Origin: an uncultured Candidatus Poseidoniales archaeon
GTDB lineage: Archaea; Thermoplasmatota; Poseidoniia; Poseidoniales; Poseidoniaceae
NCBI GenBank assembly: GCA_905182715.1
Contig: CAJJCP010000020.1
Coordinates: 319-64,318 of the forward strand
Direction: 5' to 3'
DNA length: 64,000 nucleotides
A program made the translations under genes and the position numbers. The notes beneath the pieces were generated by a model. That model saw only the letters and a list, made by a program, of their open reading frames with translations, was not told the origin of the DNA and searched no databases. The stretch's first letter is position 1. Every line of letters begins with the position of its first letter. Below are positions 1 to 20,512 of this stretch, in pieces.

Positions 1-519
1 TCGAACTCTTTCTCTGACGAGCGTGAAACTGCGCCCAATCATTTCTTTTGCTATTGAATTTGATACATTCTCTTGATTGTTATCATGTAATACCATTTTT
101 GTTCCATCCCTTGGCAAAAGCCCTTCTCGATCAACAACTTGCATGATAGTTTCTCCCGGTTTAGGGATGAGTTTATGCAATTCTTGATCAAGAGTACGGA
201 CGGTGAGATGTGCAATCATAGGTATCTCATCAAGATCGATTCCTTCGTCCCAATCGTCATCAAATTCAATACCTGCTCCACCAGCTACTTTCGCAACCCC
301 GACGTAAATCGTTGAATCACGATGGCCGGCAGCGTTACTATCTGAGATCACTGAACCCGTCGCATCATAGATGTCGAACTGACCTTTCGGTGCGAGTTTT
401 AGATCTTGAACCGCTTGCTTCAGAATGGCATTTTGAGGTACTTCGACCCGTTGTTTCTGGGATTGATCGAGGGTATTGGCTACAGTCAGTGGTATCATTT
501 TGTTTTGCATATTTTTCAT
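1..519 (-). CDS. Ubiquitin-like (beta-grasp-like) candidate with internal Gly-Gly; 3' end leaves the window
   Basis: Minus-strand open frame absent from the ORF track because it runs off the left edge. ATG at 519 (in-frame ATG at 510) follows a GGAG. The first 81 aa (MKNMQNKMIPLTV..DSTIYVGVAKVAGG) have Ub/ThiS/SAMP-like length and end in GG (nt 277-282). An acidic linker (AGIEFDDDWDEGIDLDE) and a further domain follow. Confidence 0.4.
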   Translation of the reverse strand, partial: MKNMQNKMIPLTVANTLDQSQKQRVEVPQNAILKQAVQDLKLAPKGQFDIYDATGSVISDSNAAGHRDSTIYVGVAKVAGGAGIEFDDDWDEGIDLDEIPMIAHLTVRTLDQELHKLIPKPGETIMQVVDREGLLPRDGTKMVLHDNNQENVSNSIAKEMIGRSFTLVRERVR

Positions 520-596
520 CTCCGTTTTGTCTTCAAACTATACTTTTGTCAAGGTGTCTTATTTCTGTTAAATTTGGTAAGGGTTCAATATAATAC

Positions 597-728
597 TCAC
601 TCTTTCTTATCTTTCAAAGCGGTGTTCATGATCCCGAACCCAGGAATGATTTCCGTGGGTCCGTCTTTACTGTATGAGTTAGCAAATGCTTCTCTCATAC
701 TCTGTGCAAATGTTATTTCTTTACTCAT
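597..728 (-). CDS. 43-aa mini-protein, repeat copy 1
   Basis: ATG at 728 after the repeated GGAG leader. Sequence MSKEITFAQSMREAFANSYSKDGPTEIIPGFGIMNTALKDKKE, stop TGA at 597-599. Below the ORF-track size cutoff. Confidence 0.35.
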   Translation of the reverse strand: MSKEITFAQSMREAFANSYSKDGPTEIIPGFGIMNTALKDKKE

Positions 729-815
729 ATCTTTTCATCTCCGTTTTGTCTTCAAACTATACTTTTGTCAAGGTGTCTTATTTCTGTTAAATTTGGTAAG
801 GGTTCAATATAATAC

Positions 816-947
816 TCACTCTTTCTTATCTTTCAAAGCGGTGTTCATGATCCCGAACCCAGGAATGATTTCCGTGGGTCCGTCTTTACTGTATGAGTTA
901 GCAAATTGCGTTCTCATACTCTGTGCGAATGATTTATCTTTACTCAT
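816..947 (-). CDS. 43-aa mini-protein, repeat copy 2
   Basis: Paralog of 597-728: MSKDKSFAQSMRTQFANSYSKDGPTEIIPGFGIMNTALKDKKE. It has the same leader. All amino-acid differences lie in residues 4-14. Confidence 0.35.
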   Translation of the reverse strand: MSKDKSFAQSMRTQFANSYSKDGPTEIIPGFGIMNTALKDKKE

Positions 948-1022
948 ATCTTTTCATCTCCGTTTTGTCTTCAAACTATACTTTTGTCAAGGTGTCTTAT
1001 TTCTGTTAAATTTGGTAAGGGT

Positions 1023-1445
1023 TCAATATAATTCAGAGTCGATGCTTTCTCCTGTTTGTGAACAAAACAGTTTGTATGAATCTGATTGTCTATCACGGTG
1101 TGCAAAAATCAGCTTTCCATATTTTTGATGCTGATGAACGAGAATTCGAGTTCTCCAAGAAATGTATAATGCTTGTACTAAAATTGTCAATCCAGTAAGG
1201 TACACAATGCAATACGTAATTGGTTTCAGTGATTGAAACACTTTATCCGCCACAGAGATATGATTCTCGAGGTTCATCACCTCGTCGACGGTATGCGGAA
1301 AAATACTCTGTGAAACAACTTCTGAAGTAAATTCAGATTTAATTTCATGTCGATGTGCAGTTAAAGTAAATTCTATGATTTTTATTCCCTCTTTGCACTC
1401 AACTTGAATTGGGTTAGGGATTACTCGATTATCATAAATCATCAA
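1023..1445 (-). CDS. Hypothetical protein with one predicted TM helix
   Basis: 140-aa ORF co-oriented with the cassette. Hydrophobic stretch ITYCIVYLTGLTILVQALYISW. Its start overlaps the end of the 60-aa ORF. Confidence 0.35.
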   Translation of the reverse strand: MMIYDNRVIPNPIQVECKEGIKIIEFTLTAHRHEIKSEFTSEVVSQSIFPHTVDEVMNLENHISVADKVFQSLKPITYCIVYLTGLTILVQALYISWRTRILVHQHQKYGKLIFAHRDRQSDSYKLFCSQTGESIDSELY

Positions 1446-1614
1446 ACATGCACCTTTCCTGTATGTTTCGTAAGTCCCCTGGTCGTTTGAACATGATTTT
1501 CCTCTTCACAGAATGCTCTCCATGCGATTTTATTCTTTTTACGTTTATTTCTAAGAGTAGGATTGATCCATTGTTTCGTTCTAATTCTACGGGATGTGCG
1601 CGACATTGTATCAC
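1432..1614 (-). CDS. Hypothetical small basic protein
   Basis: 60-aa ORF preceded by an AT-rich intergenic region (1615-1720). A competing plus-strand ORF (1448-1675) exists. Confidence 0.2.
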   Translation of the reverse strand: MIQCRAHPVELERNNGSILLLEINVKRIKSHGEHSVKRKIMFKRPGDLRNIQERCMFDDL

Positions 1615-1720
1615 TCTCTATCTTTTATCCTTCCCAAGAGAATATAAATTTAACAAATTTAATAATATGTTATGAACAAGTAAGATTGTTATATTTCTTT
1701 ATCTACTTTCAATACTAAAT

Positions 1721-2473
1721 TTACTTCCAAAGTTGCTCAAGAACCTCAAACGGAACAAAAAACCAAAAAACCAAAATAACTCCTGCGGTGAAAAAGAGGT
1801 ATACGGATAGAAATTCTAGTAAAGTCGCGATCAATTTAAATAAAAGCGCCATTGCTAAAAATAGAATGCATATACCGATTATTGGAAAAACAGTAACATA
1901 AATTATCCAAACTACACCCTCAGTTATCGACGACGAATAATGCAGCTGCTCCAACAACCATCCGCAAAAAAAGATTAATCCGGTGAAGAGATAGGATGCA
2001 AGAACTAAGGGGCCGTCCGACCAGTCATACAACCAGTCCTCCAAAAAACAAACAACCAGATGAAAGACTATCAACGTACCACCATAGATCACTATATCCA
2101 TTGTAAGGGAAGGGCCAAGAATGTAGTTTACTCCCAAAAAGAGTAAATAGATTACTCCCAAAAAGAGTACAATGGACTTACATCGCCATAAAAAAGAAAT
2201 GATGCTTTTTCTTATTGTTATGGGCAATAGAATATCGTTTCTTGAAACTGATTGGCGGTTATAATCTCTCAAATGGATTTGAGCACGTTTATGGTGCTCA
2301 CAAGACCAATGATCATGGTTAGATGAAAAACAGATACTACATCTTTTCCTTTTTTCCACTTGAATGTGAGGTTTATCTTTCACTTGAATGTGAGGTTTGA
2401 CAGGAAAGGACTGAAGTGGTCCACTTCCTTGATAGTCATTAACAAGATCTAAAATATTTATTCCTTCGTCCAT
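1721..2473 (-). CDS. CCHC zinc-knuckle protein fused to a polytopic membrane domain
   Basis: CSICFSSNHDHWSC fits CX2CX4HX4C exactly (aa 45-58, nt 2300-2341). It is followed by about 5-6 hydrophobic helices. Two internal 24-bp tandem duplications are present (KPHIQVKD/KPHIQVEK and LLFLGVIY/LLFLGVNY). Confidence 0.6.
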   Translation of the reverse strand: MDEGINILDLVNDYQGSGPLQSFPVKPHIQVKDKPHIQVEKRKRCSICFSSNHDHWSCEHHKRAQIHLRDYNRQSVSRNDILLPITIRKSIISFLWRCKSIVLFLGVIYLLFLGVNYILGPSLTMDIVIYGGTLIVFHLVVCFLEDWLYDWSDGPLVLASYLFTGLIFFCGWLLEQLHYSSSITEGVVWIIYVTVFPIIGICILFLAMALLFKLIATLLEFLSVYLFFTAGVILVFWFFVPFEVLEQLWK

Positions 2474-2546
2474 AATTTCACTTCACAATGCTTCTGCAGT
2501 TCCTCAATCGATAAGAACGAAGAGAATTTGTTAAATTTAAGAAAAT

Positions 2547-2735
2547 CTAAGCAGGTGGATGGGAATATGAAAGAAGGTAATGTCCACATTCACACTGGGG
2601 CAAGGAAACTCCAGTGAACACAAAACGTGCACGATAAGCACTGACGTCCACGGGAACTTTCCGGCCGCATCTGCAAATTATTATGGAAATCCATTTTCCT
2701 TGAGATTCGACTTCATCATCAATCCAGAGCCTCAT
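2547..2735 (-). CDS. Small Zn-ribbon-like protein
   Basis: 62 aa with CRCG..(24 aa)..CECG. Its ATG overlaps the stop of the upstream E1-like gene in an ATGA (2732-2735), suggesting translational coupling. Confidence 0.5.
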   Translation of the reverse strand: MRLWIDDEVESQGKWISIIICRCGRKVPVDVSAYRARFVFTGVSLPQCECGHYLLSYSHPPA

Positions 2736-4288
2736 TCAATACCCTCCGATGTGGAATCAAGTTGAACGTCCGAATCGGTGGGTTTCGGCGACCAAAGAGC
2801 TTTTTCAAGTTGTTGAACTCCGCTTTTCCGATTCAACTCTCCGTCCGAAAGATTGCAGTATACTTCATTATAGCGTGCATTCCAATTCACTGAACCAATA
2901 CTGGAATACTTCTGACCAGTCAAGCGTTGAAGGGCTGAAATAGCTTGGAGTGAGCCAACAAATGCGTTGGTAATCGCAAGTGAGGAAAGGGGGACTTCTC
3001 CATCTTCTTGACATGAATATACGACCTGATCACGTGCGACTGAAGGGCCGTAGAATTCGACAAGGTTGGTCGTTGAAAACTCTGTATACTGCGCGAATAA
3101 CCCCGTGATTCCGCCATTGACATATGGCTGGTTTTTTCGTGCAGCAATTAAATCTGCAAGAACGCGAGGACGCATAGCATCAAGGCACCCAAGTATTGCA
3201 TCTGTTTGTTCGAGTTGAGTGCGGATTTCATCATCCTTCAACACTTTATACTGTCGAAGGATGATATCTTCAGAGTCTGAAAGTAAATCGTCAAGAGTGA
3301 ATCCTTCGCTACTACTGGTTTCGAGCGAGGGCTGCGGAGGTTGGAGAAGGCCGTCATGAAGTTCATAAGCGATAGAAATTTTGGCATCTGGAAGGTTTCG
3401 ATTCAACCAGTCTTTAGCGGCTTCAATTTTCGGCCTTCCAATATCTGATTCAGAAAAAATAACTTGTCGATTGAGATTATGACGTTCAACTTCCATGTCT
3501 TTATCAAAAACAAGAAGTTGTATGTCGTTAAAATCCGAATTTTTTAATCCATTGACAATGGAATGAAGTGCCCACGTACCGAGACCTCCCGCACCAACGA
3601 CGGTTAGATGGCCTGAGGGGGGGGTTTTTGGTTCTGGGAGCGTAAATCGCATGATTGGAAATTTGGGATGTATATTTTCATCTCCCCCAGATACCTGAAG
3701 TTTCTTGAGAAGTTCTTGCACCAAAGGAGTTTCATCATCCAAACGCATCAATACTCGCTTATGCCCGGTTCCATCGTTTACTGGACGGATGTTAATGTGA
3801 GAATCGATTCCTTCAAGTTGAAAGTCAAGATGATTGATACTACCTTTCATCGAAGGTTCGTTCACACGAACATTCACTGAAACCGATACCTTTGGTACAT
3901 CTACTGGAGTGTAACAATTTGCTCGACGGAAAATTTCGCTCCATATCAAGCACGCAGAAATAGTTGCCAGCGAAGGTTCAAACATCGGATGTGCAGATTT
4001 CTGACAAGGTGTTCCATCGAGAAATACGCCTTCTTGGCCATAGGATACAAAAAGCTTGGAAGCATCATTTTTAAATCCACCAGCAAGTGGTTTCTTGACC
4101 CAGGCAATTGTAAAATCAGGATCTGCAGAGGAGTATGGGAACGATTGAATTCCGAGTTGTTGAGCAATTTGTATCATTGCATCCTTAAACAGTGAAGGAC
4201 TTGAATCGGCATCCTCGAACGTTACTTTAAGAGATTCTAAAATATCCTGATGAACAAGACCTCGTTGACGGCTAAATATATCGCTCAT
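2732..4288 (-). CDS. E1-like (ThiF/MoeB/Uba-type) adenylating enzyme, paralog 2; degenerate N-terminal ThiF-like half plus active C-terminal half
   Basis: C-terminal half has VVGAGGLGTW (nucleotide loop), FDKDMEVERHNLNRQ, GRPKIEAA, CLDAMRPRV and a candidate Cys in YSCQEDG. The N-terminus starts with the ThiF-like FSRQRGLV but has no G-loop. The ATG at 4288 forms an ATGA overlap with the upstream AAA gene stop. Confidence 0.8.
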   Translation of the reverse strand: MSDIFSRQRGLVHQDILESLKVTFEDADSSPSLFKDAMIQIAQQLGIQSFPYSSADPDFTIAWVKKPLAGGFKNDASKLFVSYGQEGVFLDGTPCQKSAHPMFEPSLATISACLIWSEIFRRANCYTPVDVPKVSVSVNVRVNEPSMKGSINHLDFQLEGIDSHINIRPVNDGTGHKRVLMRLDDETPLVQELLKKLQVSGGDENIHPKFPIMRFTLPEPKTPPSGHLTVVGAGGLGTWALHSIVNGLKNSDFNDIQLLVFDKDMEVERHNLNRQVIFSESDIGRPKIEAAKDWLNRNLPDAKISIAYELHDGLLQPPQPSLETSSSEGFTLDDLLSDSEDIILRQYKVLKDDEIRTQLEQTDAILGCLDAMRPRVLADLIAARKNQPYVNGGITGLFAQYTEFSTTNLVEFYGPSVARDQVVYSCQEDGEVPLSSLAITNAFVGSLQAISALQRLTGQKYSSIGSVNWNARYNEVYCNLSDGELNRKSGVQQLEKALWSPKPTDSDVQLDSTSEGIE

Positions 4289-5412
4289 AGTATCACCCAA
4301 TCGTCTTCATCATCCTGTTCTTCGGACCATTCTTCGAGTTTTTCTTCATTTACATGAACGGGTGCAACGGTCCGAAAAAGATGCCTTGACGCTTGGAGGC
4401 CGTGTTCCAAGTCTTCAGTTTTCAAACACACTTCTGTTTTTTCTTCAATGCATCGTCGAGCTGAACAGTGTTTGATTTGGTCAACGAACCCTTTCAATTC
4501 GGCTCCAGTGACCTTATCCCTAAGTCGGTTTGAAGCAGCAATCCATTCTTGATTGGATATCGTCGATGGAATAGTACCGATTTGCATCTGAAAAAATTCA
4601 TAGAAGAGATCATTTGTAAGGGCACCAACCTCAATGCTCTGATTAAAACGCCCTGGACGAAGAAAAGCATCGTCAATTAATTCGGCTTTATTGGTTGAGG
4701 CCATGAGGTAGATGCCATCGGAAGGCTTCAATCCATCCATCATTGTCAAGAGTTGGGCAACGACAGAACTTGAGTGTTGACTTCCCTCTGAACTATCGCG
4801 GTTTCGCCCTATTGCATCGAATTCGTCAAAAAAGAGAACGACTGGTGCAAGTTCTTCCGCCCGCTGAAACATTTCACGAACAGCGCGTTCACTTTCTCCG
4901 ACCCACTTTGACAAGAAATCTGGGCCCGATACTGCCATAAATTGTACATTGGCTAAACTTGCAGCAGCCCTTCCCAACATGGTTTTCCCTGTCCCAGGTG
5001 GGCCGTGAAGTAGAACTCCACCTGAACAAGAAAGGCCCAATGAATCATAGATTTCGGGATTGTTAATTGGATGTACAAGATGATCGATTAACTCCTTTTT
5101 GGCATCTTGGTGGCCAATAACAGAATCCATTTCGATTCGCCCCATTGTTGCAGGACGTCGTGCTTGTGACGCCCATGGAGTAAATTTGAGAAATGCTTCT
5201 TCAAAATCTTCGGTACAAATACGCAAATCTTCAAGTTCATCTTCAGTGTCCTTACCGGGCTCTTTGGCTTGGCCGCCAAGATCGGCGAAGTCCTTCGCCA
5301 CTCGCATGTCGGCACAAATTCGCAATATCTGCTCCCGTGCATCCAACGGTTTTCTTCGACCAATCAGAAAGAGAAACTTCTTCCAATGGCATGTTTTTTG
5401 AATGGATTTCAA
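4285..5412 (-). CDS. Cdc48/VCP-like AAA+ ATPase, D1 lid/linker plus D2 fragment
   Basis: D2 Walker A LLHGPPGTGKTML and Walker B VLFFDEFDAIG. From residue 36 (MRVAKDF..DLRICTEDFEEAF..) it reads as the D1-D2 linker that continues ORF 5252-6481 in another frame. Confidence 0.75.
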   Translation of the reverse strand: MKSIQKTCHWKKFLFLIGRRKPLDAREQILRICADMRVAKDFADLGGQAKEPGKDTEDELEDLRICTEDFEEAFLKFTPWASQARRPATMGRIEMDSVIGHQDAKKELIDHLVHPINNPEIYDSLGLSCSGGVLLHGPPGTGKTMLGRAAASLANVQFMAVSGPDFLSKWVGESERAVREMFQRAEELAPVVLFFDEFDAIGRNRDSSEGSQHSSSVVAQLLTMMDGLKPSDGIYLMASTNKAELIDDAFLRPGRFNQSIEVGALTNDLFYEFFQMQIGTIPSTISNQEWIAASNRLRDKVTGAELKGFVDQIKHCSARRCIEEKTEVCLKTEDLEHGLQASRHLFRTVAPVHVNEEKLEEWSEEQDDEDDWVIL

Positions 5413-6481
5413 GAATACGCTCTCGGCCTTTTACATCTGGATACGGTACGTGAATGCGCCGGTCAAAACGTCCGGCACGAAGCAGTGCAGGATCAATTGT
5501 TTCGAGTAAATTTGTTGAACCAACAACGAGAACTTGGCCTCGATCTTCAAATCCATCCATTTGAATGAGGAGTTCCGTGAGTATTCGCTTTTCCAACTCC
5601 CCACTGCTGTTTTTCCGATCACCCGCAATGGCATCGATTTCGTCGATATAGATGACCGATGGGGCTTGTCGCTTTGCCTCCGCAAATTTTTCACGGAGTG
5701 CTGATTCGGAAGCGCCGTAATGAGCGCTTACAATTTCTGGTCCGCTGATACAAATGAAATTGCATTGTGCCTCACGTGCAAGAGCGCGTGCAAGGAGAGT
5801 TTTTCCAACTCCTGGAGGCCCATAAAGGAGAATTCCTCGCGGTGGTTCTTGACCTGATTTGACATAAATTTCAGGATGGATCAGAGGTACAACTGCAATT
5901 TCCTTAATCGCTTCAATCGTCTCATCAAGACCACCAATATCGTCAAAAGATACGGCGGGAACCTCAATAATTGAACGACGTGACTTTTTCCCAAGGATTT
6001 CAATTTCCGTGTTTGGAGTGAGCCAGCCGTGTTGAGGGCGGCATCGAGTTACTTGAAGTTCGAGTGGTTCTCCGAGTACAGAGACGGTGAAATGGTCATC
6101 TTTTGAAAGATAGATGTCGCGGATGGCTGCTTGAACATGTGGGATCTCCTCTGGCTGAAGTGGACGAGCAGTTGGTTGGAGCCGTACTTTGACAAAGGCT
6201 TGGGCATCAATTTGAGCAAGTTCTACCTTTTCTCCTAGTTGAATTTGAACATTGATTCGGGTAGTGGAACCGATACCGATAGAATCGTATGGGATATTGG
6301 GATCGAGTCTTAGGAATGCCACTGTCGAATTCTTCTCGCCAATAATTCGAAGAGGGGAGCGGCTTTGGAAACCGTTCTCATCAGCTGCTTGTGTATTCAT
6401 ATACACGTCATTTCCAACGCCACCTCGGTGGGTCTCATGGTCAAGTGGGGCAATACAGGTAAATTCAGTCATCGTAATCAT
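5252..6481 (-). CDS. Cdc48/VCP-like AAA+ ATPase, N-domain plus D1 fragment
   Basis: N-terminal Cdc48-N-like region (STTRINVQIQLGEKVEL..VSFDDIGGLDE). D1 Walker A LLYGPPGVGKTLLA and Walker B VIYIDEIDAI. The frame ends just after GADIANLCRHA, where D1 should continue. Confidence 0.8.
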   Translation of the reverse strand: MITMTEFTCIAPLDHETHRGGVGNDVYMNTQAADENGFQSRSPLRIIGEKNSTVAFLRLDPNIPYDSIGIGSTTRINVQIQLGEKVELAQIDAQAFVKVRLQPTARPLQPEEIPHVQAAIRDIYLSKDDHFTVSVLGEPLELQVTRCRPQHGWLTPNTEIEILGKKSRRSIIEVPAVSFDDIGGLDETIEAIKEIAVVPLIHPEIYVKSGQEPPRGILLYGPPGVGKTLLARALAREAQCNFICISGPEIVSAHYGASESALREKFAEAKRQAPSVIYIDEIDAIAGDRKNSSGELEKRILTELLIQMDGFEDRGQVLVVGSTNLLETIDPALLRAGRFDRRIHVPYPDVKGRERILEIHSKNMPLEEVSLSDWSKKTVGCTGADIANLCRHASGEGLRRSWRPSQRAR

Positions 6482-6517
6482 TCCATCTAATAATTTAGTC
6501 GAGTAAGTGTTTTTTTG

Positions 6518-8065
6518 TTAAATATGATATTTACAAGGTTCATCAAACCATGGGGGCTGAGTCGGTGAAGACTTCTCCAGTTCTCCTTCATACCATGTGG
6601 CTCGGAAATTTGGAAGATTCGTATCTGGGTGGAGGTTGATAATCGCCATGAGAGCCATCATCGCTCCAACCCAAGCTGTTGAAGTGACGATTGAAGCGAT
6701 GGGGCGAATTCCTTCTTCGGTACAAGAAATCACTTCGGTAGAACGTGCGCTTTCCCTCCCATAACGACAAACCATGCAACCGTTTTGATCGAAAGTTTCA
6801 ACCACGCCATGATACGCTTCAGTGGCTCCATTAATCATGAGACTACCGTTGTTAATCGCCGCTTCATTCAATATTGTTCGAGCGATCATATTGTCAAGGC
6901 ATGCAAGATAGACTCGACTGCTTTTCAATGCATCACCTAACGGTGAAGGCTCAAGGCCTAAGTCGTCAAAATCATCATTTTCATCTGTAAGACTTTCCGA
7001 AATTAAATGGTGCGGGTTCAGATATTCAAAATAAGACTTTACTTGATTCAGCGGGTTCAATTCTCGGAGTCGTTCGGAGGCTGTTGAAGCTTTTACACAA
7101 CCGAGGTGTTGTTCATTGTAGAGCACTTGCCGGTTCAGATTGTGAAGTTCAATTTCGGGGTCCCCGTCTACAATATGGAACGTTCCTTCCTTCATCTGTT
7201 CGAAAAGAAGCGGTGCACTCCAACTACCGAGCCCACCTGCGCCTAAAATCACAAGTTCATGCCCGACAAGTTCCCACGAGGAATCGAGGGGATGGTTTGG
7301 TTCATGCCATGCAATAAGTCCGATGTCTTCTGAAACTGAGAGGCCTGTTTGAGAAGGTTGCATGGTTCGTGAAAGAAAGTCAAAAACATTCTGATCCGGC
7401 TGTTGGGATGGGCGGTATCGAGCAAGGGTCGCATTTCCGTCACTGGTTAATTGTACGTCAACAAGTGTCCCATCGATGCCAAAGATGTGGCTCCGAACCT
7501 CTTCCAAATCCGTTGATTCCACTCGGCAGGTGACTGTAAACCAGGCATCGCTGATTTTCATTTGAGCCATACAATCTACATCGCGAAGCAGTTGTTGCAG
7601 CATTGTAGCAGCAACAGTAACCCGCATTGAAGGGGTGAGAATGTGCCCTGATGATACCGTTTTTTGAACAAGGAATTCTCGAGAAATCATTGCCCGGGGA
7701 CCATGAGCGAAACCATAGAGGTTTACTTTTTCAGTTTGTTCTGATGGATTTAAGCAGAGGTGATAATCATAATTGTCCCCTTCTACTTCAGTTGTTGATG
7801 AAAACACCTTCCGATGTATTGGACTCAATCGCTCCCAATCACTCCACAACTTTGCATCTGGATAAGCAAGTTTCCAAAACACAGAGTTCGGTGGATGCTG
7901 CGGCTTTACGATTCCAATACATCCGGATTGTTGGCCAATGCCCAATTGAGAAAGGAGAACAACAAGGTCGCTGACACCTCCGGAGCTCCCTGAAACAAGA
8001 ATTTTCAGTTCGGAGAGCCGGTTCTGATTGACGAGGCCTCGTTGTCGAAGAAATATATCATTCAT
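6518..8065 (-). CDS. E1-like (ThiF/MoeB/Uba-type) adenylating enzyme, paralog 1; degenerate N-terminal ThiF-like half plus active C-terminal half
   Basis: ILGAGGLGSW, VDGDPEIELHNLNRQ, GCVKASTA, CLDNMIART, CMVCRYG and SCTEEG. N-terminal half: FLRQRGLVNQ..ILVSGSSGGV (degenerate G-loop). Likely ATG at 8065 (MNDIF); the ORF track starts at a GTG at 8074. Confidence 0.8.
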   Translation of the reverse strand: MNDIFLRQRGLVNQNRLSELKILVSGSSGGVSDLVVLLSQLGIGQQSGCIGIVKPQHPPNSVFWKLAYPDAKLWSDWERLSPIHRKVFSSTTEVEGDNYDYHLCLNPSEQTEKVNLYGFAHGPRAMISREFLVQKTVSSGHILTPSMRVTVAATMLQQLLRDVDCMAQMKISDAWFTVTCRVESTDLEEVRSHIFGIDGTLVDVQLTSDGNATLARYRPSQQPDQNVFDFLSRTMQPSQTGLSVSEDIGLIAWHEPNHPLDSSWELVGHELVILGAGGLGSWSAPLLFEQMKEGTFHIVDGDPEIELHNLNRQVLYNEQHLGCVKASTASERLRELNPLNQVKSYFEYLNPHHLISESLTDENDDFDDLGLEPSPLGDALKSSRVYLACLDNMIARTILNEAAINNGSLMINGATEAYHGVVETFDQNGCMVCRYGRESARSTEVISCTEEGIRPIASIVTSTAWVGAMMALMAIINLHPDTNLPNFRATWYEGELEKSSPTQPPWFDEPCKYHI

Positions 8066-8076
8066 CACAATCACCG

Positions 8077-8608
8077 TTAACGAGCTTCATCCAATGGATT
8101 CGGATTCTTCAACACATCTTCGACATGATGCAATAGAAAACCTAACTTTTCTTTCTCTGTTCGACAGCCGATAAAACTCTCGCTGAAACCAGCCCTGTAC
8201 AAAGGCACAAATCTCCATTTCAGGCAAGATACTGTATCTCCCTTTTCGAAAGATATTTTCATGCTCAATATTTTCACACTTGGGCGATAGCACAAACACC
8301 TGTGGAGTTTCTGCAAAGGAACGGGAATCAATGAGAAGCTGGTAGTTCACTACGCTTTGATCACGACTCGAAACAACACCTTGAAGGTTTACAACAAAAG
8401 CGCCAATTGTATTTTTTGTACTGTGTTTACTGCTAAAGTTCAGCGAAGGGTACATCGTCATTTTGAAACGGTTAAACACTGCTTTGGACAAACTTGAACC
8501 CGAGCACACTCGAAGAGGCACTTTGTATTCACCTGGCTTGCAGTCATTAATTTGTTCAACTCCAGCCGACATGCGGAGGAAGTCCCCATTGTCCATCATA
8601 AATCCCAT
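8077..8608 (-). pseudogene. E2/UBC-like protein, duplicate copy A, frame-disrupted
   Basis: The core (GEYKV..EHENIF..EMEIC) has the same amino-acid sequence as copy B. Two 1-nt deletions just after the candidate catalytic Cys move the conserved tail (GFSESF..VLKNPNPLDEAR) into ORF 8077-8331. The N-terminus is remodelled by indels. Confidence 0.55.
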
Positions 8609-9360
8609 ATTTTTTCTCGTTCATTTTGCTCACTCATCTTTTGAATCTATCAAGTCGTTCGGATTTTATTAAATTTGACATGAAGAGTGGCTTTTTGGCG
8701 TACCCTCAGCACCGATTAAGACGAGCTTCATCCAATGGATTCGGATTCTTCAACACATCTTCGACATGATGCAATAGAAAACCTAACTTTTCTTTCTCTG
8801 TTCGACAGCCGATAAAACTCTCGCTGAAACCAGGCCCTGTACTAAGGCCACAAATCTCCATTTCAGGCAAGATACTGTATCTCCCTTTTCGAAAGATATT
8901 TTCATGCTCAATATTTTCACACTTGGGCGATAGCACAAACACCTGTGGAGTTTCTGCAAAGGAACGGGAATCAATGAGAAGCTGGTAGTTCACTACGCTT
9001 TGATCACGACTCGAAACAACACCTTGAAGGTTTACAACAAAAGCGCCAATTGTATTTTTTGTACTGTGTTTACTGCTAAAGTTCAGCGAAGGGTACATCG
9101 TCATTTTGAAACGGTTAAACACTGCTTTGGACAAACTTGAACCCGAGCACACTCGAAGAGGCACTTTGTATTCACCCGGCATTCCCTGGCCGGAATTTGT
9201 TCGTCTCCAGCCGACGATGCGGAGGAGGTCCCCATTTCCATCATAAATCCCGTATGTTTCTCTCGTTGCATTTGTGCTCACTTCATCGTTTGAATCTTTC
9301 GAGTCGTAATCGGATTTTCATTAAATTTGACATGAAGGAGTGGCTTTTTGCCGTACCCTC
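8081..9360. repeat. Tandem duplication of about 630-640 bp (E2-like gene plus the 3' end of the gene upstream of it)
   Basis: 8081-8707 is homologous to 8722-9360. The central coding core encodes the same amino acids in both copies. The flanks carry substitutions and indels. Confidence 0.85.
8706..9281 (-). CDS. E2/UBC-like protein, copy B (intact)
   Basis: FAETPQVFVLSP..IEHENIF(x13)EICG..LLHHVEDVLKNPNPLDEA resembles the E2 pattern PPxVxF..HPN..C..LLxxPNPxxP. The HxN-to-Cys loop is longer than in canonical E2s (15 intervening residues). Confidence 0.6.
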   Translation of the reverse strand: MSTNATRETYGIYDGNGDLLRIVGWRRTNSGQGMPGEYKVPLRVCSGSSLSKAVFNRFKMTMYPSLNFSSKHSTKNTIGAFVVNLQGVVSSRDQSVVNYQLLIDSRSFAETPQVFVLSPKCENIEHENIFRKGRYSILPEMEICGLSTGPGFSESFIGCRTEKEKLGFLLHHVEDVLKNPNPLDEARLNRC

Positions 9361-10252
9361 GACGATAATCAAGATACGCTTCTTTGCCAGCAGGTGTTGC
9401 GAGCGAAATTGGAGCAACGACCCACCGGCCTTTTACAGTCACCGTGGAAAGGCCTGGTTGAACGATGACGAAAGTGCATCCGAATAGGCGATTCTCGGAT
9501 GCTGGATGTTGTACAGTTCAGCCGATTCTCCCGCTCTCTGGAAGTTTGCAATGAAGAGATGTTGTCCATCACGATAATGCGGGAGGTTCACCAACGCTGG
9601 TGAATTCTTCGACCTGCGTCGCGAACCCGAACTCCCATCCCATGTTGGCCCCTTCTTTGGCAGGCGATTACCCGTGCAATGAGATGCACGTTGCCACCAC
9701 TCCAGCTGGGCTGGCGTCACACTTCCTTTGAAGATACTCTGGCCGACTTTAAGCGTAGAAGGGGTTTTCAAGGCTACATTGGGCTAGTTTGTTATTTTTC
9801 GCGCTGTTGCTGCTCTGTGGCTTGCTCTGTGGCTTGCTCTGTGGCTTGCTCTGTGGCTTGAAATTTATTTGGGACTGGGCTGAGGTCTGGGCGGAAAACT
9901 GCGACTCCCCTGTTACCAGCCACAGTTTGTATCGTACTGCACAGCATCCCCAAAAACCTCGAATCAAGATCGAAGGGTCGGATGATTGGTAGGGCACCCG
10001 GATGTCATTCTTGTCCAGTCTTGGGAGTCAAAGAGAGAGACTGTCGTTACCTTCGAGAGGCGCGCGGGCGAACACAAGGTCGCCATCTCATATATGGCTT
10101 ATTGCCCGTGCGAAAGCGGTACGCGTACGAAAGAACGATTCTTGCTGTTTTCGTTGAGTGACGAATACATTCGCATATTCGCCGACTTCAATCCCGGGAA
10201 TGAGTAGTTTGGTACCCTCCGCTTAGGCGCTCAGAACCCACAAAGGGTCTCG
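9290..10252 (-). pseudogene. Degraded or ambiguous coding remnant
   Basis: No long clean ORF. One minus-strand frame is open from about 10215 to 9749 except for two in-frame TGAs (10088-10090, 10028-10030) and has no canonical start. At least one further frame change near 9490 leads into ..VTVKGRWVVAPISLATPAGKEAYLDYRRGYGKKPLLHVKFNENP.., which ends at about 9285. Confidence 0.3.
9811..9858. repeat. 12-bp perfect tandem repeat x4 (tgctctgtggct)
   Basis: Read directly from the sequence. It encodes (LLCG)n on the plus strand or (KPQS)n on the minus strand. Confidence 0.9.
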
Positions 10253-10510
10253 TTAGCCGTTTGCTTCACCCCATACCGATTCGACCTGTTTCAGCATCCC
10301 CATGCGGATCTTTATGAGGGGCAGTCTCCTATTGTTTGGTGATTCAGTGCATTTCCGTGGGCATCCATTGCATATCGCAAACTCCCATCGCGCGGGTAGA
10401 AGCCCCGATCGAGTCATGGCTTCAAGTACAGTAGAACTTTCATCCACAAGAACGCGTGTTGAAATGGTCTCGTTTGAACCGAGAATAAATTCAACTTCTC
10501 GGAGACCCAT
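10253..10510 (-). CDS. Small protein ending in Gly; beta-grasp-like N-terminus plus a Cys cluster (tentative)
   Basis: 85 aa: VEFILGSNETISTRVLVDESSTVLEAMTRSGL, then CNGCPRKC, with C-terminus ..WGEANG. It is the first gene of the minus-strand cassette. Confidence 0.35.
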   Translation of the reverse strand: MGLREVEFILGSNETISTRVLVDESSTVLEAMTRSGLLPARWEFAICNGCPRKCTESPNNRRLPLIKIRMGMLKQVESVWGEANG

Positions 10511-10616
10511 GGTTTGTGAGATTTTTTGACCGAGATATCATCTGATTTGTGCTAGATTTAATCAAATATTCCGTTGCGCGCAGTGACTAAATATCATAGT
10601 GAAGGGTGGTCTTAGC
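10511..10616. promoter_or_regulatory. Divergent intergenic region between the two accessory gene blocks
   Basis: AT-rich with TATA-like elements (tttaatcaaatatt, taaatatcat). GGTGG lies 8 nt before the ATG at 10617. Confidence 0.25.
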
Positions 10617-11918: not shown

Positions 11919-12019
11919 GGTCTTGAAAAAGAAACCCGCTGATGGGTATGGCAACATTCTTGTTGCACTCATGCTCCTTGAAAATGTAAAATCTAAGAAA
12001 GAATTGAAGAATCTTCCGT

Positions 12020-12286
12020 TTGATGATGTCGAAGAAGATGATTTGGATGGTGTCGAATGGACTGAGGTCGTTACTTTTGTGCAAGGATCTGAAATGCCCA
12101 TATGACCTCAGCAAAGGTATTATTTCCGGCAGCCAAACTCGGATGAAAGAGCTCATTCAATCAAAACTTGTACGCCGTCATGTCTCTGATGAAGGCTCAT
12201 CGAAAATGCGTTTCGCCCTCACCAATGAAGGCTACCTTGTTGCAAGTCAGTTGTATGACGTTCTTAAGCAGGAGGGGATGGCATGA
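12020..12286 (+). CDS. Winged-helix DNA-binding segment, possibly the C-terminus of the 10617 gene after frame breaks
   Basis: SGSQTRMKELIQSKLVRRHV..MRFALTNEGYLVA is wHTH-like. The ATGA overlap at 12283 couples it to the next gene. Confidence 0.4.
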   Translation: MMMSKKMIWMVSNGLRSLLLCKDLKCPYDLSKGIISGSQTRMKELIQSKLVRRHVSDEGSSKMRFALTNEGYLVASQLYDVLKQEGMA

Positions 12287-12609
12287 CTGAGTTTACTGTT
12301 GACGATTTGCGTAAATTTCACGAACGCGAGGGCGAGGATGCAAATCTCGTCTGCCCCCATTGTGGCCCCGTTTTTACTCTAGTCGATGGAGAGGCAGAAC
12401 TACGTTTGAGGGGTTTTATTAAACATCAGTCATCTCAATCAGACGAAATGTACCTTCTCGCAAAATTTGGAATATGTGTTGGATACCATACTGGCATAGA
12501 GAATATTTCGCCCTATGGAGTTCCAGTCATTCGAGAGGATGACTATTCCCCTAAGCTCGAACGCGCCCCACTCACCCCCGAAGAACTTGCTATTTTCGAT
12601 GAAAAATAG
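12283..12609 (+). CDS. Hypothetical protein
   Basis: 108-aa ORF, start coupled to the preceding gene (ATGA). One CPHCG motif only. Confidence 0.45.
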   Translation: MTEFTVDDLRKFHEREGEDANLVCPHCGPVFTLVDGEAELRLRGFIKHQSSQSDEMYLLAKFGICVGYHTGIENISPYGVPVIREDDYSPKLERAPLTPEELAIFDEK

Positions 12610-12680
12610 ACGCTCCTGCGCGAGTCACACAACCAAGCCCTGAGAAGAAAAATCTTGTCAAAACGAGTGCAACTGCTGCT

Positions 12681-15356: not shown

Positions 15357-15357
15357 T

Positions 15358-19131: not shown

Positions 19132-19143
19132 CAGCATTCACCA

Positions 19144-20493: not shown

Positions 20494-20512
20494 AAATATA
20501 TTCACAAAAGAG

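What the first reader, a model, noticed from the sequence alone, without database searches (positions are those of the whole stretch)
1..10510. Ubiquitin-like conjugation cassette with two fused-tandem E1s, duplicated E2, a dedicated Cdc48-type unfoldase and Gly/Gly-Gly beta-grasp candidates
Nearly every gene on the minus strand here fits one theme. In transcription order they are: an 85-aa protein ending in Gly (10253-10510) and a decayed gene. Then come two E2/UBC-like genes (HxN..C..LLxxPNP), E1-like paralog 1, an N-D1-D2 Cdc48/VCP-like ATPase and E1-like paralog 2. These are followed by an ATGA-coupled CxCG..CxCG Zn-ribbon protein, a CCHC zinc-knuckle membrane protein and small ORFs. Last comes a protein whose first 81 aa look like a Ubl ending in GG (1-519). 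E1 plus E2 plus Ubl with its own Cdc48 resembles a eukaryote-style tag-then-unfold module. It differs from the sets I know for archaeal SAMP/UbaA, Caldiarchaeum-type E1-E2-RING-Rpn11, CBASS Cap2/Cap3 and Bil/Bub operons. No JAB/DUB or RING domain is recognisable in the window. Either could lie beyond the left edge, or the Zn-ribbon or zinc-knuckle proteins could serve as an adaptor/E3. The location in a hypervariable, duplication-rich accessory region suggests a conflict/defence role or dedicated substrate targeting rather than sulfur-carrier chemistry.
Basis: partly seen in the sequence, partly recalled or inferred. Interest (0 to 1): 0.9.

Follow-up and report, generated by a model that had tools for sequence, protein, structure and literature searches.

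The report
Archaeal ubiquitin-like tagging cassette with unfoldase
A marine Poseidoniales archaeon carries a partly damaged copy of a conserved, apparently undescribed gene cluster encoding ubiquitin-like tags, two activating enzymes, conjugating enzymes, a tag-cleaving protease and its own Cdc48 unfolding motor, a prokaryotic parallel to the eukaryotic 'tag, then unfold' machinery.

Summary

**Components confirmed**
- Both ~520-aa proteins carry a ThiF/E1 adenylation domain.
- The 191-aa protein models as a UBC-like E2 and is tandemly duplicated.
- The AAA protein is a full N-D1-D2 Cdc48/VAT relative.
- The edge ORF models as two tandem ubiquitin-like β-grasp domains. Its best fold matches are linear di-ubiquitin, at E 3e-8.

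- The 'missing' JAB protease is the C-terminal part of the edge ORF (Ubl1-GG–Ubl2-GG–JAB). It lies just beyond the left edge.
- The 85-aa 'Ubl ending in Gly' is the N-terminal fragment of a decayed 361–375-aa gene.
- Cdc48 and the second E2 copy are frameshifted in this record only.
- 'Tandem ThiF' E1s are not shown. The N-terminal halves are a rare family-specific domain.

**Distribution**
- The core E2–E1a–Cdc48–E1b is conserved in 24 of 24 testable Poseidoniales/Thermoplasmatota contigs.
- A related Ubl–E1–E2–E2–JAB–JAB–Cdc48 cluster occurs in Actinoplanes and Dactylosporangium.
- I found no description of this system in the literature held.

**Verdict:** a new variant of prokaryotic ubiquitin-like conjugation systems, closest to Bub and Bil, with a dedicated unfoldase. 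Its biological role is unresolved.

The parts
277..498 (-). Ubl1: 74-aa ubiquitin-like β-grasp ending in VAKVAGG (residues 8-81 of the edge ORF, whose start codon is at 519)
   Evidence: The AF2 model shows ββαββ(α)β with pLDDT 76-88. Foldseek best hits are linear di-/tetra-ubiquitin and ISG15 at E 3e-8. The GG end is invariant in the 31 distinct Ubl1 sequences the motif search extracted from the 47 homologues (2 failed the pattern). It is the best-conserved small part, 69% identical where E1a is 46%.
1..276 (-). Acidic linker (214-276) and Ubl2 (1-213), a second β-grasp. The ORF runs off the left edge and continues into a JAB/MPN+ protease and a coiled coil in relatives.
   Evidence: The Ubl2 model has pLDDT 83-95. 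Both domains align to di-ubiquitin. Ubl1 and Ubl2 match by hhalign at 96%. The L001, L007, L012 and L013 orthologues continue ...PGG-JAB, with Pfam JAB at 29.7 bits (above the gathering score) and an HTHPDIGIFLSGID motif.
513..1032 (-). 219-bp tandem repeat. An 82-nt leader is present three times, in front of two 43-aa ORFs (597-728, 816-947) and of the Ubl1 gene.
   Evidence: Its role is unknown. Metagenome assemblies break here.
1023..1445 (-). 140-aa ORF belonging to a 151-aa family; unknown function
   Evidence: Conserved in L001, L003, L009 and L012. No Pfam match.
1442..1606 (-). 54-aa highly basic small ORF
   Evidence: Homologous ORFs are present in 7 loci, including the L007, L023 and L024 lineages.
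1721..2473 (-). 250-aa membrane protein with an N-terminal CX2CX4HX4C zinc knuckle
   Evidence: Sequence read. Conserved in L001, L003, L012 and L013. No family match.
2547..2735 (-). 62-aa CxCG...CxCG zinc-ribbon-like protein, translationally coupled to E1b by an ATGA overlap
   Evidence: Coordinates. Conserved directly after E1b in 9 loci. No family match.
2732..4288 (-). E1b: E1-like adenylating enzyme, made of a family-specific N-domain (~230 aa) and a ThiF domain
   Evidence: Pfam ThiF 8.1e-24 over residues 231-466. It has GAGGLG, HNLNRQ, CLD and SCQEDG motifs. Its N-half is homologous to the E1a N-half, hhalign 97.7%. The middle segment is 17% diverged from L001 while the flanks differ by about 0-1%.
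4285..6481 (-). Cdc48/VAT-like N-D1-D2 AAA+ ATPase, split here by a frameshift at 5257-5282
   Evidence: Two AAA domains plus weak CDC48_N and CDC48_2 matches. The intact orthologue matches TIGR01243 at 2e-158 and VAT at 5e-144. Deletions mapped. Intact in 10 of 10 sister contigs. The tail is acidic and ends in WVIL, with no HbYX motif.
6518..8065 (-). E1a: E1-like adenylating enzyme, made of a family-specific N-domain (~260 aa) and a ThiF domain
   Evidence: Pfam ThiF 7.6e-33 over residues 273-480. Invariant G277/G279/G282, D302, D304, NLNRQ, K327, D393, CxxC and S449-C450. Scores fall below all NCBIfam equivalog cut-offs.
8077..8608 (-). E2A copy 2: a tandem duplicate, frameshifted in this record
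   Evidence: 99% identical cores. 1-nt indels at 8193, 8207 and 8588. Copy number varies between strains, one or two.
8706..9281 (-). E2A copy 1: UBC-like E2 with an HxN motif, a Cys after a β-hairpin insert, and an NPNP tail. Its N-terminal ~45 aa look like a remnant of Ubl1.
   Evidence: Alignment. AF2 model. Foldseek hits to UBC9, UBE2L6, Atg3, UBE2G2 and UFC1. Homologous to a second family, E2B, by hhalign at 96%. Relatives carry a full Ubl1-GG-E2A fusion.
9310..10510 (-). Decayed gene of the 'X361' family (an N-terminal Ubl2-like β-grasp plus an unknown domain). The 85-aa ORF at 10253-10510 is its first fragment.
   Evidence: Compared with the intact 361-aa L001 gene there are about 45 small insertions and 10-17% mismatches. 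The family is present in 13 loci with an invariant PRDG motif. BLASTP to Ubl2 gives 3e-05.
10587..13466 (+). Two divergently transcribed, co-conserved genes: a 563-aa family with wHTH-like segments and a 394-aa family with an N-terminal CxxC ribbon. Both are fragmented here.
   Evidence: They co-occur with the cassette in 6-7 loci, including lineages at 45% identity. No Pfam match. There is a weak MarR-type match in the PDB profile search. Whether they belong to the system is inferred.

Best explanation
The region is one strain's partly degraded copy of a multi-gene ubiquitin-like protein conjugation and deconjugation system. The system is coupled to a dedicated Cdc48/VAT-type unfoldase and is conserved across Poseidoniales (Marine Group II archaea).

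**Proposed mechanism**
1. The modifier Ubl1, and probably Ubl2, is made as a precursor fused through a Gly-Gly junction to the JAB/MPN+ metalloprotease. In other lineages it is fused to the E2s instead.
2. The JAB domain cuts after GG and frees the Ubl C-terminus.
3. An E1-like enzyme adenylates that C-terminus and takes it onto the crossover-loop Cys (SCTEEG in E1a, SCQEDG in E1b). E1a and E1b may each serve one Ubl, or may act as a heterodimer.
4. The Ubl passes to the Cys of the UBC-like E2 and then to target proteins.
5. The co-translated Cdc48-like hexamer engages and unfolds or extracts the tagged proteins, while the JAB enzyme recycles the tag.

**Shown here**
- Domain identities and folds.
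- Intact catalytic motifs.
- GG junctions.
- Tight operon coupling and its conservation.

**Inferred**
- Every biochemical step.
- The identity of the targets.
- Whether the biological role is defence/conflict (my slight preference, about 0.45) or dedicated proteostasis or membrane extraction.
For: **Folds and domains**
- The Ubl1-Ubl2 model matches linear di-ubiquitin, polyubiquitin and ISG15: E 3e-8, 86 hits at E<=1e-3, both domains aligned.
- The E2 model gives 42 E2-type folds among the top 50 hits.
- ThiF domains are present with all adenylation residues invariant.
- The ATPase is a full-length Cdc48/VAT relative with Walker A/B in both rings and aromatic pore loops (HYG, KWVG).
- JAB scores above the Pfam gathering score and has an intact E...HxHx7Sx2D motif in orthologues.

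**GG junctions**
- GG is invariant at the end of Ubl1 in fusions to JAB, E2A and E2B, in 31 distinct sequences.
- PGG follows Ubl2 in front of JAB.
- The actinomycete Ubl ends in GG or in GG plus 2-6 residues.
- There is experimental precedent: a JAB domain cleaves a Ubl-E2 fusion in Type I Bub.

**Conservation**
- E1a is followed by Cdc48 in 24 of 24 GTDB contigs long enough to test.
- The Cdc48 stop overlaps the E1b start.
- The order X361-E2A-E1a-Cdc48-E1b-...-Ubl-JAB is kept down to 32% E1 identity.
- Ubl1 and JAB are the most conserved parts, at 69-70% against 46% for E1a.
- A related Ubl-E1-E2-E2-JAB-JAB-Cdc48 cluster occurs in Actinoplanes and Dactylosporangium.

**Against sulfur chemistry**
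- There are no MoaE, ThiG or rhodanese neighbours.
- Both E1s score far below the ThiF, MoeB and UbaA cut-offs.
Against: - No biochemical data exist.
- The E2 fold match is modest (best E 0.012, TM 0.44-0.52) and no sequence profile links it to UQ_con.
- The putative catalytic Cys is replaced by Ser in a few members, which keep a Cys three residues on.
- No E3 or RING is recognisable.
- Cdc48 lacks the HbYX proteasome-docking motif.
- In this window the cassette is damaged: Cdc48, E2 copy 2 and X361 are disrupted. This genome's copy may therefore be non-functional, or the record may carry consensus errors.
- The link between conjugation and Cdc48 is by gene neighbourhood only.
Confidence: 0.72

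Rival explanations
1. The β-grasp domains are not conjugated. They act as UBX/UBL-type adaptor domains that tether the E2-like and JAB proteins to the Cdc48 N-domain or to the E1s. On this reading the cassette is a Cdc48 cofactor set, and the E1-like enzymes catalyse some other adenylation.
For: - In most lineages Ubl1 is always found fused to other proteins, never free.
- The X361 protein carries a Ubl2-like domain without a GG end.
- The Cdc48 tail and the Ubl1-Ubl2 linker share an acidic-Trp motif that could mediate non-covalent binding.
Against: - The invariant GG exactly at every Ubl1 junction, the free GG-ended Ubl in actinomycetes and the presence of an MPN+ protease, an E1 with a crossover Cys and an E2 with Cys are all unexplained by a purely adaptor role.
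- UBX domains have no GG requirement (from established knowledge).
Confidence: 0.1
2. A peptide or natural-product modification system. The ThiF-type enzymes with an N-terminal substrate-binding domain would act like PaaA or MccB on small peptides encoded nearby, such as the duplicated 43-aa ORFs.
For: - The best PDB sequence hit of E1a is PaaA (2.5e-10), and MccB also appears in the list.
- Both of those enzymes have N-terminal peptide-binding domains in front of ThiF (my own knowledge).
- Small conserved ORFs lie in the locus.
Against: - The hits cover only the generic ThiF core.
- The N-domain matches nothing in the PDB.
- The system contains Ubl, E2-like, JAB and Cdc48 parts that RiPP pathways do not need.
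- The 43-aa ORF is not conserved beyond the closest strains.
Confidence: 0.05
3. Sulfur-carrier chemistry (MoaD/ThiS/SAMP-type) for cofactor or tRNA thiolation, as the public annotation 'molybdopterin/thiamine biosynthesis adenylyltransferase' implies.
For: - ThiF, MoeB and UbaA are the top NCBIfam families by E-value.
- The Ubl ends in GG as MoaD and ThiS do.
- Sources name the E1 in this way.
Against: - All scores are far below the curated cut-offs, for example ThiF 95 bits against 275 and UbaA 50 against 450.
- No MoaE, ThiG, ThiH, rhodanese or NcsA-type neighbours occur in any locus.
- The Ubl's fold matches are ubiquitin and ISG15 rather than MoaD or ThiS.
- The constant partners are E2, JAB and Cdc48.
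Confidence: 0.03
4. In this particular genome the cassette is a non-functional relic: a pseudogenised accessory island.
For: - Cdc48 is frameshifted, E2 copy 2 is frameshifted, and X361 carries about 45 indels.
- Neighbouring + strand genes are fragmented.
- Ten sister contigs are intact.
Against: - E1a, E1b, E2 copy 1, the Zn ribbon, the TM protein and the Ubl genes are intact and nearly identical to those of intact strains.
- The roughly 45:2 excess of insertions, confined to one stretch, is unusual for natural decay and may be a consensus or assembly artefact of this record.
- This explanation concerns the state of the copy, not what the system is, so it is compatible with the best explanation.
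Confidence: 0.5

Closest known systems
Type I Bub (6E.1) bacterial ubiquitination-like operons (BubAB Ubl-E2 fusion, BubCD JAB-E1 fusion, BubE)
   Same: - The Ubl is made as a fusion with a Gly junction to an E2-like domain (in relatives L007, L013-L017 and P0160-type proteins), and a JAB peptidase is available to free it.
- PolyUbl proteins with 1-3 β-grasp domains occur.
- No recognisable E3 is present.
   Different: - Here JAB is fused to the Ubls, not to the E1.
- No DUF6527/BubE is present.
- E1 and E2 keep conserved Cys residues, whereas Bub works through Ser oxyesters.
- There are two E1 paralogues with a ~250-aa N-domain, two E2 families and a Cdc48-type ATPase.
- PADLOC and Pfam models do not recognise the E2 or Ubl.
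Bil (BilABCD) antiphage Ubl conjugation systems
   Same: The Ubl, E2, JAB and E1 gene set; the JAB pre-processes the Ubl; Type I BilA has two β-grasp domains; there is no E3.
   Different: - BilD is IAD-AAD-CYS, with a mobile Cys domain. Here the Cys sits in the crossover loop and there is no CYS domain.
- The BilD model hits E1b at only 14.8 bits.
- Bil has no AAA+ partner.
Caldiarchaeum/Asgard-type archaeal ubiquitin operons (Ub, E1, E2, RING E3, Rpn11)
   Same: An archaeal setting; a ubiquitin-like fold with a GG end and a C-terminal extension removed by an MPN+ protease (my own knowledge, plus the abstract of PMC6043591).
   Different: - No RING is present.
- The Ubl and E2 are not recognised by the Pfam ubiquitin or UQ_con models.
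- The E1 architecture differs.
- A Cdc48 gene lies inside the operon.
Haloarchaeal SAMP/UbaA sampylation with Cdc48a and proteasome
   Same: Archaeal Ubl modification that is functionally linked to a Cdc48 ATPase (abstracts of PMC4895103 and PMC10470531).
   Different: - SAMP/UbaA is E2-independent, doubles as a sulfur carrier, and its genes are dispersed.
- The UbaA equivalog model scores 50 bits against a cut-off of 450.
Eukaryotic ubiquitin-Cdc48/p97 axis and the 26S lid/base (Rpn11 above an AAA+ ring)
   Same: The same logical parts list: a GG-ended ubiquitin-fold tag made as poly- or fusion precursors, an E1, a UBC-fold E2, an MPN+ deubiquitinase and an N-D1-D2 unfoldase. p97, Cdc48 and VAT are the best PDB matches.
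   Different: - There are no Ufd1/Npl4, UBX or RING/HECT components.
- There is no HbYX motif.
- All relationships other than Cdc48 are at fold level only.
- Any functional coupling is inferred.
Thermoplasma VAT / archaeal housekeeping Cdc48
   Same: N-D1-D2 architecture; the best PDB hit is VAT at 5e-144.
   Different: - It scores 529 bits against the TIGR01243 cut-off of 803, so it is a divergent paralogue.
- Its tail is acidic and ends in W-V-[IV]-[PL] instead of HbYX.
- It is always embedded between two E1 genes.

Membership tests
UBC/E2 superfamily | Match to the Pfam UQ_con profile or to E2 sequences in the PDB | tested here: not met
   No Pfam family at E<=1. phmmer and profile searches against the PDB return no E2.
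UBC/E2 superfamily | UBC α/β fold | tested here: met
   The AF2 model has pLDDT 77.3 and pTM 0.70. In Foldseek against the PDB, 42 of the top 50 hits are E2, UEV, Atg3 or UFC1, with probability up to 1.0. The best E-value is 0.012 and TM 0.44-0.52, so support is moderate.
UBC/E2 superfamily | HPN-type motif followed by a catalytic Cys | tested here: inconclusive
   H125 and N127 are invariant and C143 is present in at least 90% of members. 2 of 27 have Ser there with a Cys at +3, as do P0172 and P0181. The Cys is conserved in the L008 and actinomycete E2s. Catalysis was not tested.
E1/ThiF/MoeB adenylating superfamily | ThiF domain above the Pfam gathering score, with nucleotide-binding and Arg/Asp/Lys catalytic residues | tested here: met
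   114.1 and 84.5 bits against a threshold of 28.1. The invariant set is GxGxxG, D302, D304, NLNRQ, K327 and D393.
ThiF, MoeB or UbaA proper (sulfur-carrier E1s) | Score above the NCBIfam equivalog cut-off | tested here: not met
   ThiF 94.9 against 275; MoeB 74 against 449; UbaA 50.3 against 450.
Canonical eukaryote/Bil-type E1 (IAD-AAD-CYS, with or without UFD) | N-terminal inactive adenylation (ThiF-like) domain | tested here: inconclusive
   - hhalign of the N-half against the C-half gives probability 0.3%.
- The N-half profile finds nothing in the PDB.
- Among 1.84 billion representative proteins it finds only 78, all at the N-termini of E1-like proteins.
- The first ~45 residues do mimic the ThiF start (RQxGLxxQ...hhhSG), and R9 and Q10 are invariant.
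- No structure prediction was run.
Canonical eukaryote/Bil-type E1 (IAD-AAD-CYS, with or without UFD) | Inserted catalytic-cysteine domain and a C-terminal ubiquitin-fold domain | tested here: not met
   The conserved Cys lies in a short crossover-loop motif (SCTEEG), as in MoeB and ThiF. Only about 40 residues follow the ThiF domain.
Cdc48/p97/VAT | N-D1-D2 architecture with two AAA modules | tested here: met
   TIGR01243 covers residues 21-723 at E 2e-158, although 529 bits is below the curated 803. Two Pfam AAA domains plus weak CDC48_N and CDC48_2 matches. VAT at 5e-144.
Cdc48/p97/VAT | C-terminal HbYX motif for 20S docking (archaeal Cdc48) | tested here: not met
   The tails end in ...DDWVIL, DDWVIP or DDWVVP, or are unrelated. 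None has Hb-Y-X.
JAB/MPN+ (JAMM) metalloproteases | JAB domain with the E...HxHx7Sx2D motif | tested here: met
   This was tested in orthologues, because the domain lies outside the window. Pfam JAB scores 29.7 bits against 22.5 in L007. HTHPDIGIFLSGID and an upstream EMGG are present in L001, L003, L007 and L008.
Ubiquitin-like β-grasp modifiers | β-grasp fold with a C-terminal Gly-Gly | tested here: met
   Model topology and Foldseek. GG is invariant at the end of Ubl1. PGG ends Ubl2 in the JAB fusions. No Pfam ubiquitin or ThiS match.
Type I Bub (6E.1) | Ubl-E2 fusion, JAB-E1 fusion, DUF6527 (BubE) and Ser-based catalysis | tested here: not met
   The Ubl-E2 fusion is present in relatives only. 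JAB is not fused to the E1. No DUF6527 was found among the cassette proteins scanned. Cys residues are retained.
Known anti-phage defence systems (PADLOC-DB 2.0) | Significant match of the system's proteins to defence-system models | tested here: not met
   Only weak generic hits to the ThiF core of Cap2 'E1-E2' models, BilD at 14.8 bits, generic JAB and AAA (IetA). There is nothing for the E2, Ubl-E2B, X361, TM or Zn-ribbon proteins.

The most novel reading that the evidence does not exclude
Poseidoniales archaea and some actinomycetes possess a self-contained 'tag, unfold, untag' machine. A ubiquitin-fold modifier is released from poly-Ubl/enzyme precursors by its own MPN+ protease and is conjugated by a non-canonical two-domain E1 and a UBC-fold E2. 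The E1 is either an IAD-AAD pseudo-dimer or has an Atg7-like N-terminal domain that recruits the E2. The conjugates are then recognised and threaded by a dedicated Cdc48 paralogue, possibly through its acidic W-x-x-[LP] tail binding the Ubl. This would be an independent or ancestral prokaryotic version of the ubiquitin-Cdc48/proteasome-lid logic, existing outside the Asgard/TACK lineage that is usually invoked for its origin.
Probability: 0.35. Interest if true: 0.9.

Novelty: new variant of a known kind. Interest (0 to 1): 0.72.

Why it matters
- Prokaryotic E1/E2/JAB/Ubl systems (Bil, Bub, CBASS Cap2/3, the Caldiarchaeum operon) are known. None of the papers I could search couples them in one operon to a Cdc48-type unfoldase.
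- This cluster does so in one of the most abundant archaeal groups of the surface ocean, and in a related form in actinomycetes.
- If the coupling is functional, it makes directly testable how Ubl tagging became linked to AAA+ unfolding, a defining feature of eukaryotic proteostasis, using a compact set of about 8 genes.
- It also reassigns a protein family currently annotated as 'molybdopterin/thiamine biosynthesis adenylyltransferase', together with several 'hypothetical proteins'.
- It provides new E2, Ubl and E1 N-domain families that current profile libraries miss.

Tried and rejected
**Tandem ThiF in the E1s**
- hhalign of the N-half against the C-half was negative, including permissive settings.
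- The N-half profile against the PDB was negative.
- The N-half profile against 1.84 billion representative proteins gave 78 hits, all E1 N-termini and none on a ThiF domain.
- The claim is not supported by sequence. The fold is still unknown because both structure-prediction jobs went to the E2 and the Ubl.

**Sequence-level links**
- Searches linking the E2 to known E2s found nothing.

**Other cassette proteins**
- Pfam, NCBIfam and PADLOC gave nothing for X361, the 563- and 394-aa neighbours, E2B, the Zn ribbon and the TM protein.
- PDB profile searches for X361 and the 563-aa family gave only spurious or weak hits: a C-type lectin segment and a MarR wHTH at E 0.048.

**Other origins**
- A scan of IMG/VR viral contigs found no relatives, so a viral origin is rejected.
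- Rfam found nothing in 1-13000.

**Extending the window leftward**
- Exact look-ups of this record's own proteins failed or returned only sister contigs.

**Literature**
- Searches for a prior description found nothing relevant.
- The Marine Group II entry in Grau-Bové et al. concerns a different set of components, UCH and RING.
- Mentions of a 'CDC48-like ATPase' in the Aravind-lab papers concern PVC secretion.

**Rejected readings**
- Sulfur-carrier and RiPP readings were considered and rejected (see the rival explanations).

Full report
**Source and state of annotation**

Homologues of the E1-like protein are named 'uncultured Poseidoniia archaeon', Thermoplasmatota and Euryarchaeota MAGs, and come largely from Tara and other marine metagenomes. 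A scan of GTDB species genomes places full-length relatives almost only in Poseidoniales, Poseidoniaceae and Thalassarchaeaceae MAGs and SAGs. The window is therefore from a Marine Group II archaeon.

Public sources call the E1 'molybdopterin/thiamine biosynthesis adenylyltransferase' and the E2-like protein 'hypothetical protein'.

**Observation check**

*E1-like proteins*
- Pfam finds a ThiF domain in both ~520-aa proteins, but only in their C-terminal halves: residues 273-480 at 7.6e-33 and residues 231-466 at 8.1e-24.
- In an alignment of 30 relatives down to 28% identity, the whole adenylation signature is invariant: GxGxxG, D302, D304, NLNRQ, K327 and D393. So are a CxxC pair and an S-C-T/Q-E-E/D-G motif at the crossover-loop position, where MoeB and ThiF carry their reactive Cys (the MoeB/ThiF comparison also rests on the alignment).
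- E1a and E1b are paralogues, 29% identical in the ThiF half. Their N-terminal halves are also homologous to each other (hhalign 97.7%).

*The N-terminal half of the E1s*
- That half could not be shown to be a second ThiF domain. hhalign against the C-half gives probability 0.3%.
- A profile of it finds nothing in the PDB.
- Among 1.84 billion representative proteins it finds only 78, every one matching at the N-terminus of an E1-sized protein.
- It does begin with a ThiF-like RQxGLxxQ..L...hhhSG segment, and R9 and Q10 are invariant.
- From memory, in MoeB and the NEDD8 E1 this N-terminal Arg completes the partner's ATP site. That is a lead for an IAD-like pseudo-dimer, not a test.

*E2-like protein*
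- It has no Pfam, NCBIfam, PADLOC or PDB sequence match.
- An AF2 model built on 27 sequences has pLDDT 77 and pTM 0.70. Its order of elements is helix, β-meander, HxN loop, β-hairpin carrying the Cys, then a long helix.
- In Foldseek, 42 of the top 50 PDB hits are E2, UEV, Atg3 or UFC1 structures. The best is UBC9 at E 0.012, probability 1.0.
- H125 and N127 are invariant and C143 is nearly so.
- The gene is tandemly duplicated with a 643-bp unit and 99% identical cores. Copy number is one or two in sister strains.

*AAA protein*
- It is a full N-D1-D2 Cdc48/VAT relative. TIGR01243 matches at 2e-158 over residues 21-723, below the family cut-off. The best PDB hit is Thermoplasma VAT at 5e-144, followed by p97 and Cdc48.

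*Edge ORF*
- It was modelled with an 18-row alignment (pLDDT 79).
- It consists of two ββαββ(α)β domains joined by a disordered acidic linker.
- Foldseek's best matches are linear di- and tetra-ubiquitin, polyubiquitin and ISG15, at E 3e-8, with 86 hits at E<=1e-3 and about 180 aligned columns spanning both domains.

1. **The JAB protease is not absent.** It is the continuation of the edge ORF.
   - In contigs of the same species (97% nucleotide identity) and in lineages at 70%, 45% and 32% E1 identity, the protein reads Ubl1-GG, acidic linker, Ubl2-PGG, JAB/MPN+, coiled coil.
   - Pfam JAB scores 29.7 bits, above its threshold, and the HTHPDIGIFLSGID motif is present.
2. **The 85-aa 'protein ending in Gly' is a gene fragment.** It is the first piece of a 361-375-aa gene, which I call X361.
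   - Intact X361 has an N-terminal Ubl2-like domain with an invariant PRDG motif, followed by an unknown domain.
   - In this record the gene carries about 45 small insertions and 10-17% mismatches.
3. **Cdc48 is split here.** Deletions of 2+2+1 nt at 5257-5282 lie in the D1-D2 linker. The second E2 copy has 1-nt indels.
   - All ten other contigs that encode the identical E1a have intact Cdc48 (730-733 aa) and intact X361.
   - The excess of insertions confined to one stretch looks more like a consensus artefact than natural decay, but I cannot decide this without reads.

**Conservation**

I built HMMs of each part and mapped them on 60 loci.

- E1a is followed directly by Cdc48 in 24 of 24 GTDB contigs long enough to tell. 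E1b follows, with its start overlapping the Cdc48 stop, wherever the contig continues.
- The order X361, E2A, E1a, Cdc48, E1b, small Zn ribbon, variable genes, then the Ubl fusions and JAB holds down to 32% E1 identity.
- Ubl1 appears as an N-terminal fusion, always ending in GG, to three partners:
  - JAB;
  - E2A;
  - a second E2-like family, E2B, which is homologous to E2A by hhalign at 96% with the Cys aligned.
- In the window lineage E2A keeps only a degenerate remnant of Ubl1, and E2B is missing. A sister strain, L009, has Ubl1-E2B where the window has a repeat followed by Ubl1-Ubl2-JAB.
- Ubl1 and JAB are the most constrained parts, at 69-70% identity where E1a is 46%.
- Two divergently transcribed genes (the 563- and 394-aa families) and several small or membrane proteins are co-conserved.
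- No relatives occur in IMG/VR viral contigs.
- Actinoplanes and Dactylosporangium genomes carry Ubl (ending in GG, or GG plus 2-6 residues), an E1 with the same two-domain build, two E2s, two JABs and a 700-aa Cdc48-like ATPase.
- Anaerolineae and Aminicenantes relatives have E2-E1-JAB without Cdc48.

**Most likely mechanism**

The steps below are inferred. The parts themselves are shown.

1. JAB cleaves after GG, releasing Ubl1 and probably Ubl2 from the precursor. This has been demonstrated for the JAB domain and Ubl-E2 fusion of Type I Bub.
2. E1a and/or E1b adenylate the Ubl and take it onto the crossover Cys.
3. The UBC-like E2 takes it onto its Cys and passes it to targets.
4. The Cdc48 paralogue unfolds or extracts the conjugates, and JAB recycles the tag.

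Points bearing on step 4:
- Both Cdc48 rings have Walker A/B motifs and aromatic pore loops (read).
- The ATPase lacks an HbYX tail. It ends instead in an acidic run plus W-V-[IV]-[PL], which is WVIL in this lineage and resembles a LIR-type WxxL. A similar acidic-Trp motif occurs in the Ubl1-Ubl2 linker.
- I note this as a possible Ubl-binding element, but it is speculative.

The biological role is open.
- For a conflict or defence role:
  - strain-level copy-number change;
  - insertion of unrelated genes;
  - mosaic recombination, with 17% divergence in the middle of E1b between near-identical flanks;
  - a hypervariable Ubl2;
  - gene decay;
  - a giant P-loop NTPase next door.
- Against it:
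  - the broad, apparently vertical conservation in Poseidoniales;
  - the absence of any PADLOC match.

**Comparison with known systems**

- The closest are Type I Bub and Bil. Shared features are Ubl, E2, JAB and E1, JAB pre-processing, polyUbl or Ubl-E2 fusions, and no E3.
- It is not a member of either family. JAB is not fused to the E1, there is no DUF6527, Cys rather than Ser is retained, there is no CYS domain in the E1, and the family models do not match.
- It is not the Caldiarchaeum type, because it has no RING and no UQ_con or ubiquitin Pfam matches.
- It is not SAMP/UbaA, because an E2 is present and it scores far below the UbaA cut-off.
- None of the papers retrieved describes an operon that joins E1/E2/JAB/Ubl to a Cdc48-type ATPase. 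The 2006 census of prokaryotic Ub-like operons does not mention AAA proteins at all.
- The held library lacks most subscription-journal papers, so prior description cannot be excluded.

**Verdict**

This is a real, conserved and apparently undescribed variant of prokaryotic ubiquitin-like conjugation systems with a dedicated unfoldase. The copy in this window is damaged. Confidence in the conjugation reading is about 0.7, and confidence that Cdc48 acts on the conjugates is about 0.35-0.45.

Noticed in passing
window 513-1032: A 219-bp tandem repeat. An 82-nt leader occurs three times at 100% identity, in front of two copies of a 43-aa ORF (597-728 and 816-947, minus strand) and in front of the Ubl1-Ubl2-JAB gene. 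Metagenome assemblies of the same species break or carry N-gaps here.
   Followed up: partly
window 3000-3999 (middle of E1b), compared with L001: This stretch shows 16.9% mismatches with no indels, while the flanks are 0-1% diverged. The same mosaic pattern appears at 9200-12999, which suggests recombination between strains.
   Followed up: partly
window 9190-10560: Relative to the intact gene in L001 there are about 45 small insertions against 2 deletions. This insertion bias is confined to one stretch and is specific to this record. It is either a pseudogene or a consensus artefact.
   Followed up: partly
window 9811-9860: A 12-nt tandem repeat (TGCTCTGTGGCT x4.2). It encodes KPQS repeats in the variable linker of the X361 protein. 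Sister strains have KPQN/KPQT repeats at the same place.
   Followed up: no
window 10587-13466 (+): Two divergently transcribed genes accompany the cassette in 6-7 loci across lineages: a 563-aa family with wHTH-like segments and a 394-aa family with a CxxC ribbon. They may be regulators. Both are fragmented in the window.
   Followed up: partly
window 13373-21475 (+): A low-GC (37-38%) block encodes a 630-aa protein and a 2121-aa P-loop NTPase (AAA_19 / NPHP3_N / STAND-like hits). In this record frameshifts split it into 5 ORFs. It is linked to the cassette only in the closest strains.
   Followed up: no
L040 8900-15850; L042; L044 (Dactylosporangium, Actinoplanes): A bacterial cluster of Ubl(GG), an E1 with the same N-domain, E2, E2, TM-JAB, JAB and a 700-aa Cdc48-like ATPase. 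Walker B of D1 reads DD rather than DE.
   Followed up: partly
L001 13740-13783, and the equivalent position in L007, L012, L013, L018, L020, L023 and L024: The Cdc48 paralogue ends in an acidic run plus W-V-[IV]-[PL], with no HbYX motif. The Ubl1-Ubl2 linker carries a similar DDDW motif.
   Followed up: no
L003 8222-10913 (also L004-L006, L060, L061): Some strains carry five extra genes between the 62-aa Zn-ribbon gene and the 250-aa TM gene. They are a 197-aa paralogue of the TM protein, a 210-aa protein, a TFIIS-type Zn ribbon, a thymidylate-kinase-like protein and a PQ-loop protein.
   Followed up: no
window 1442-1606 (-): A 54-aa, very basic small ORF that is conserved in 7 loci of the cassette.
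   Followed up: no
L025 (Gammaproteobacteria MAG), L031 (Acidiferrobacter MAG): These contigs carry the archaeal-type cassette but are labelled as bacterial MAGs, so they are probably mis-binned.
   Followed up: no
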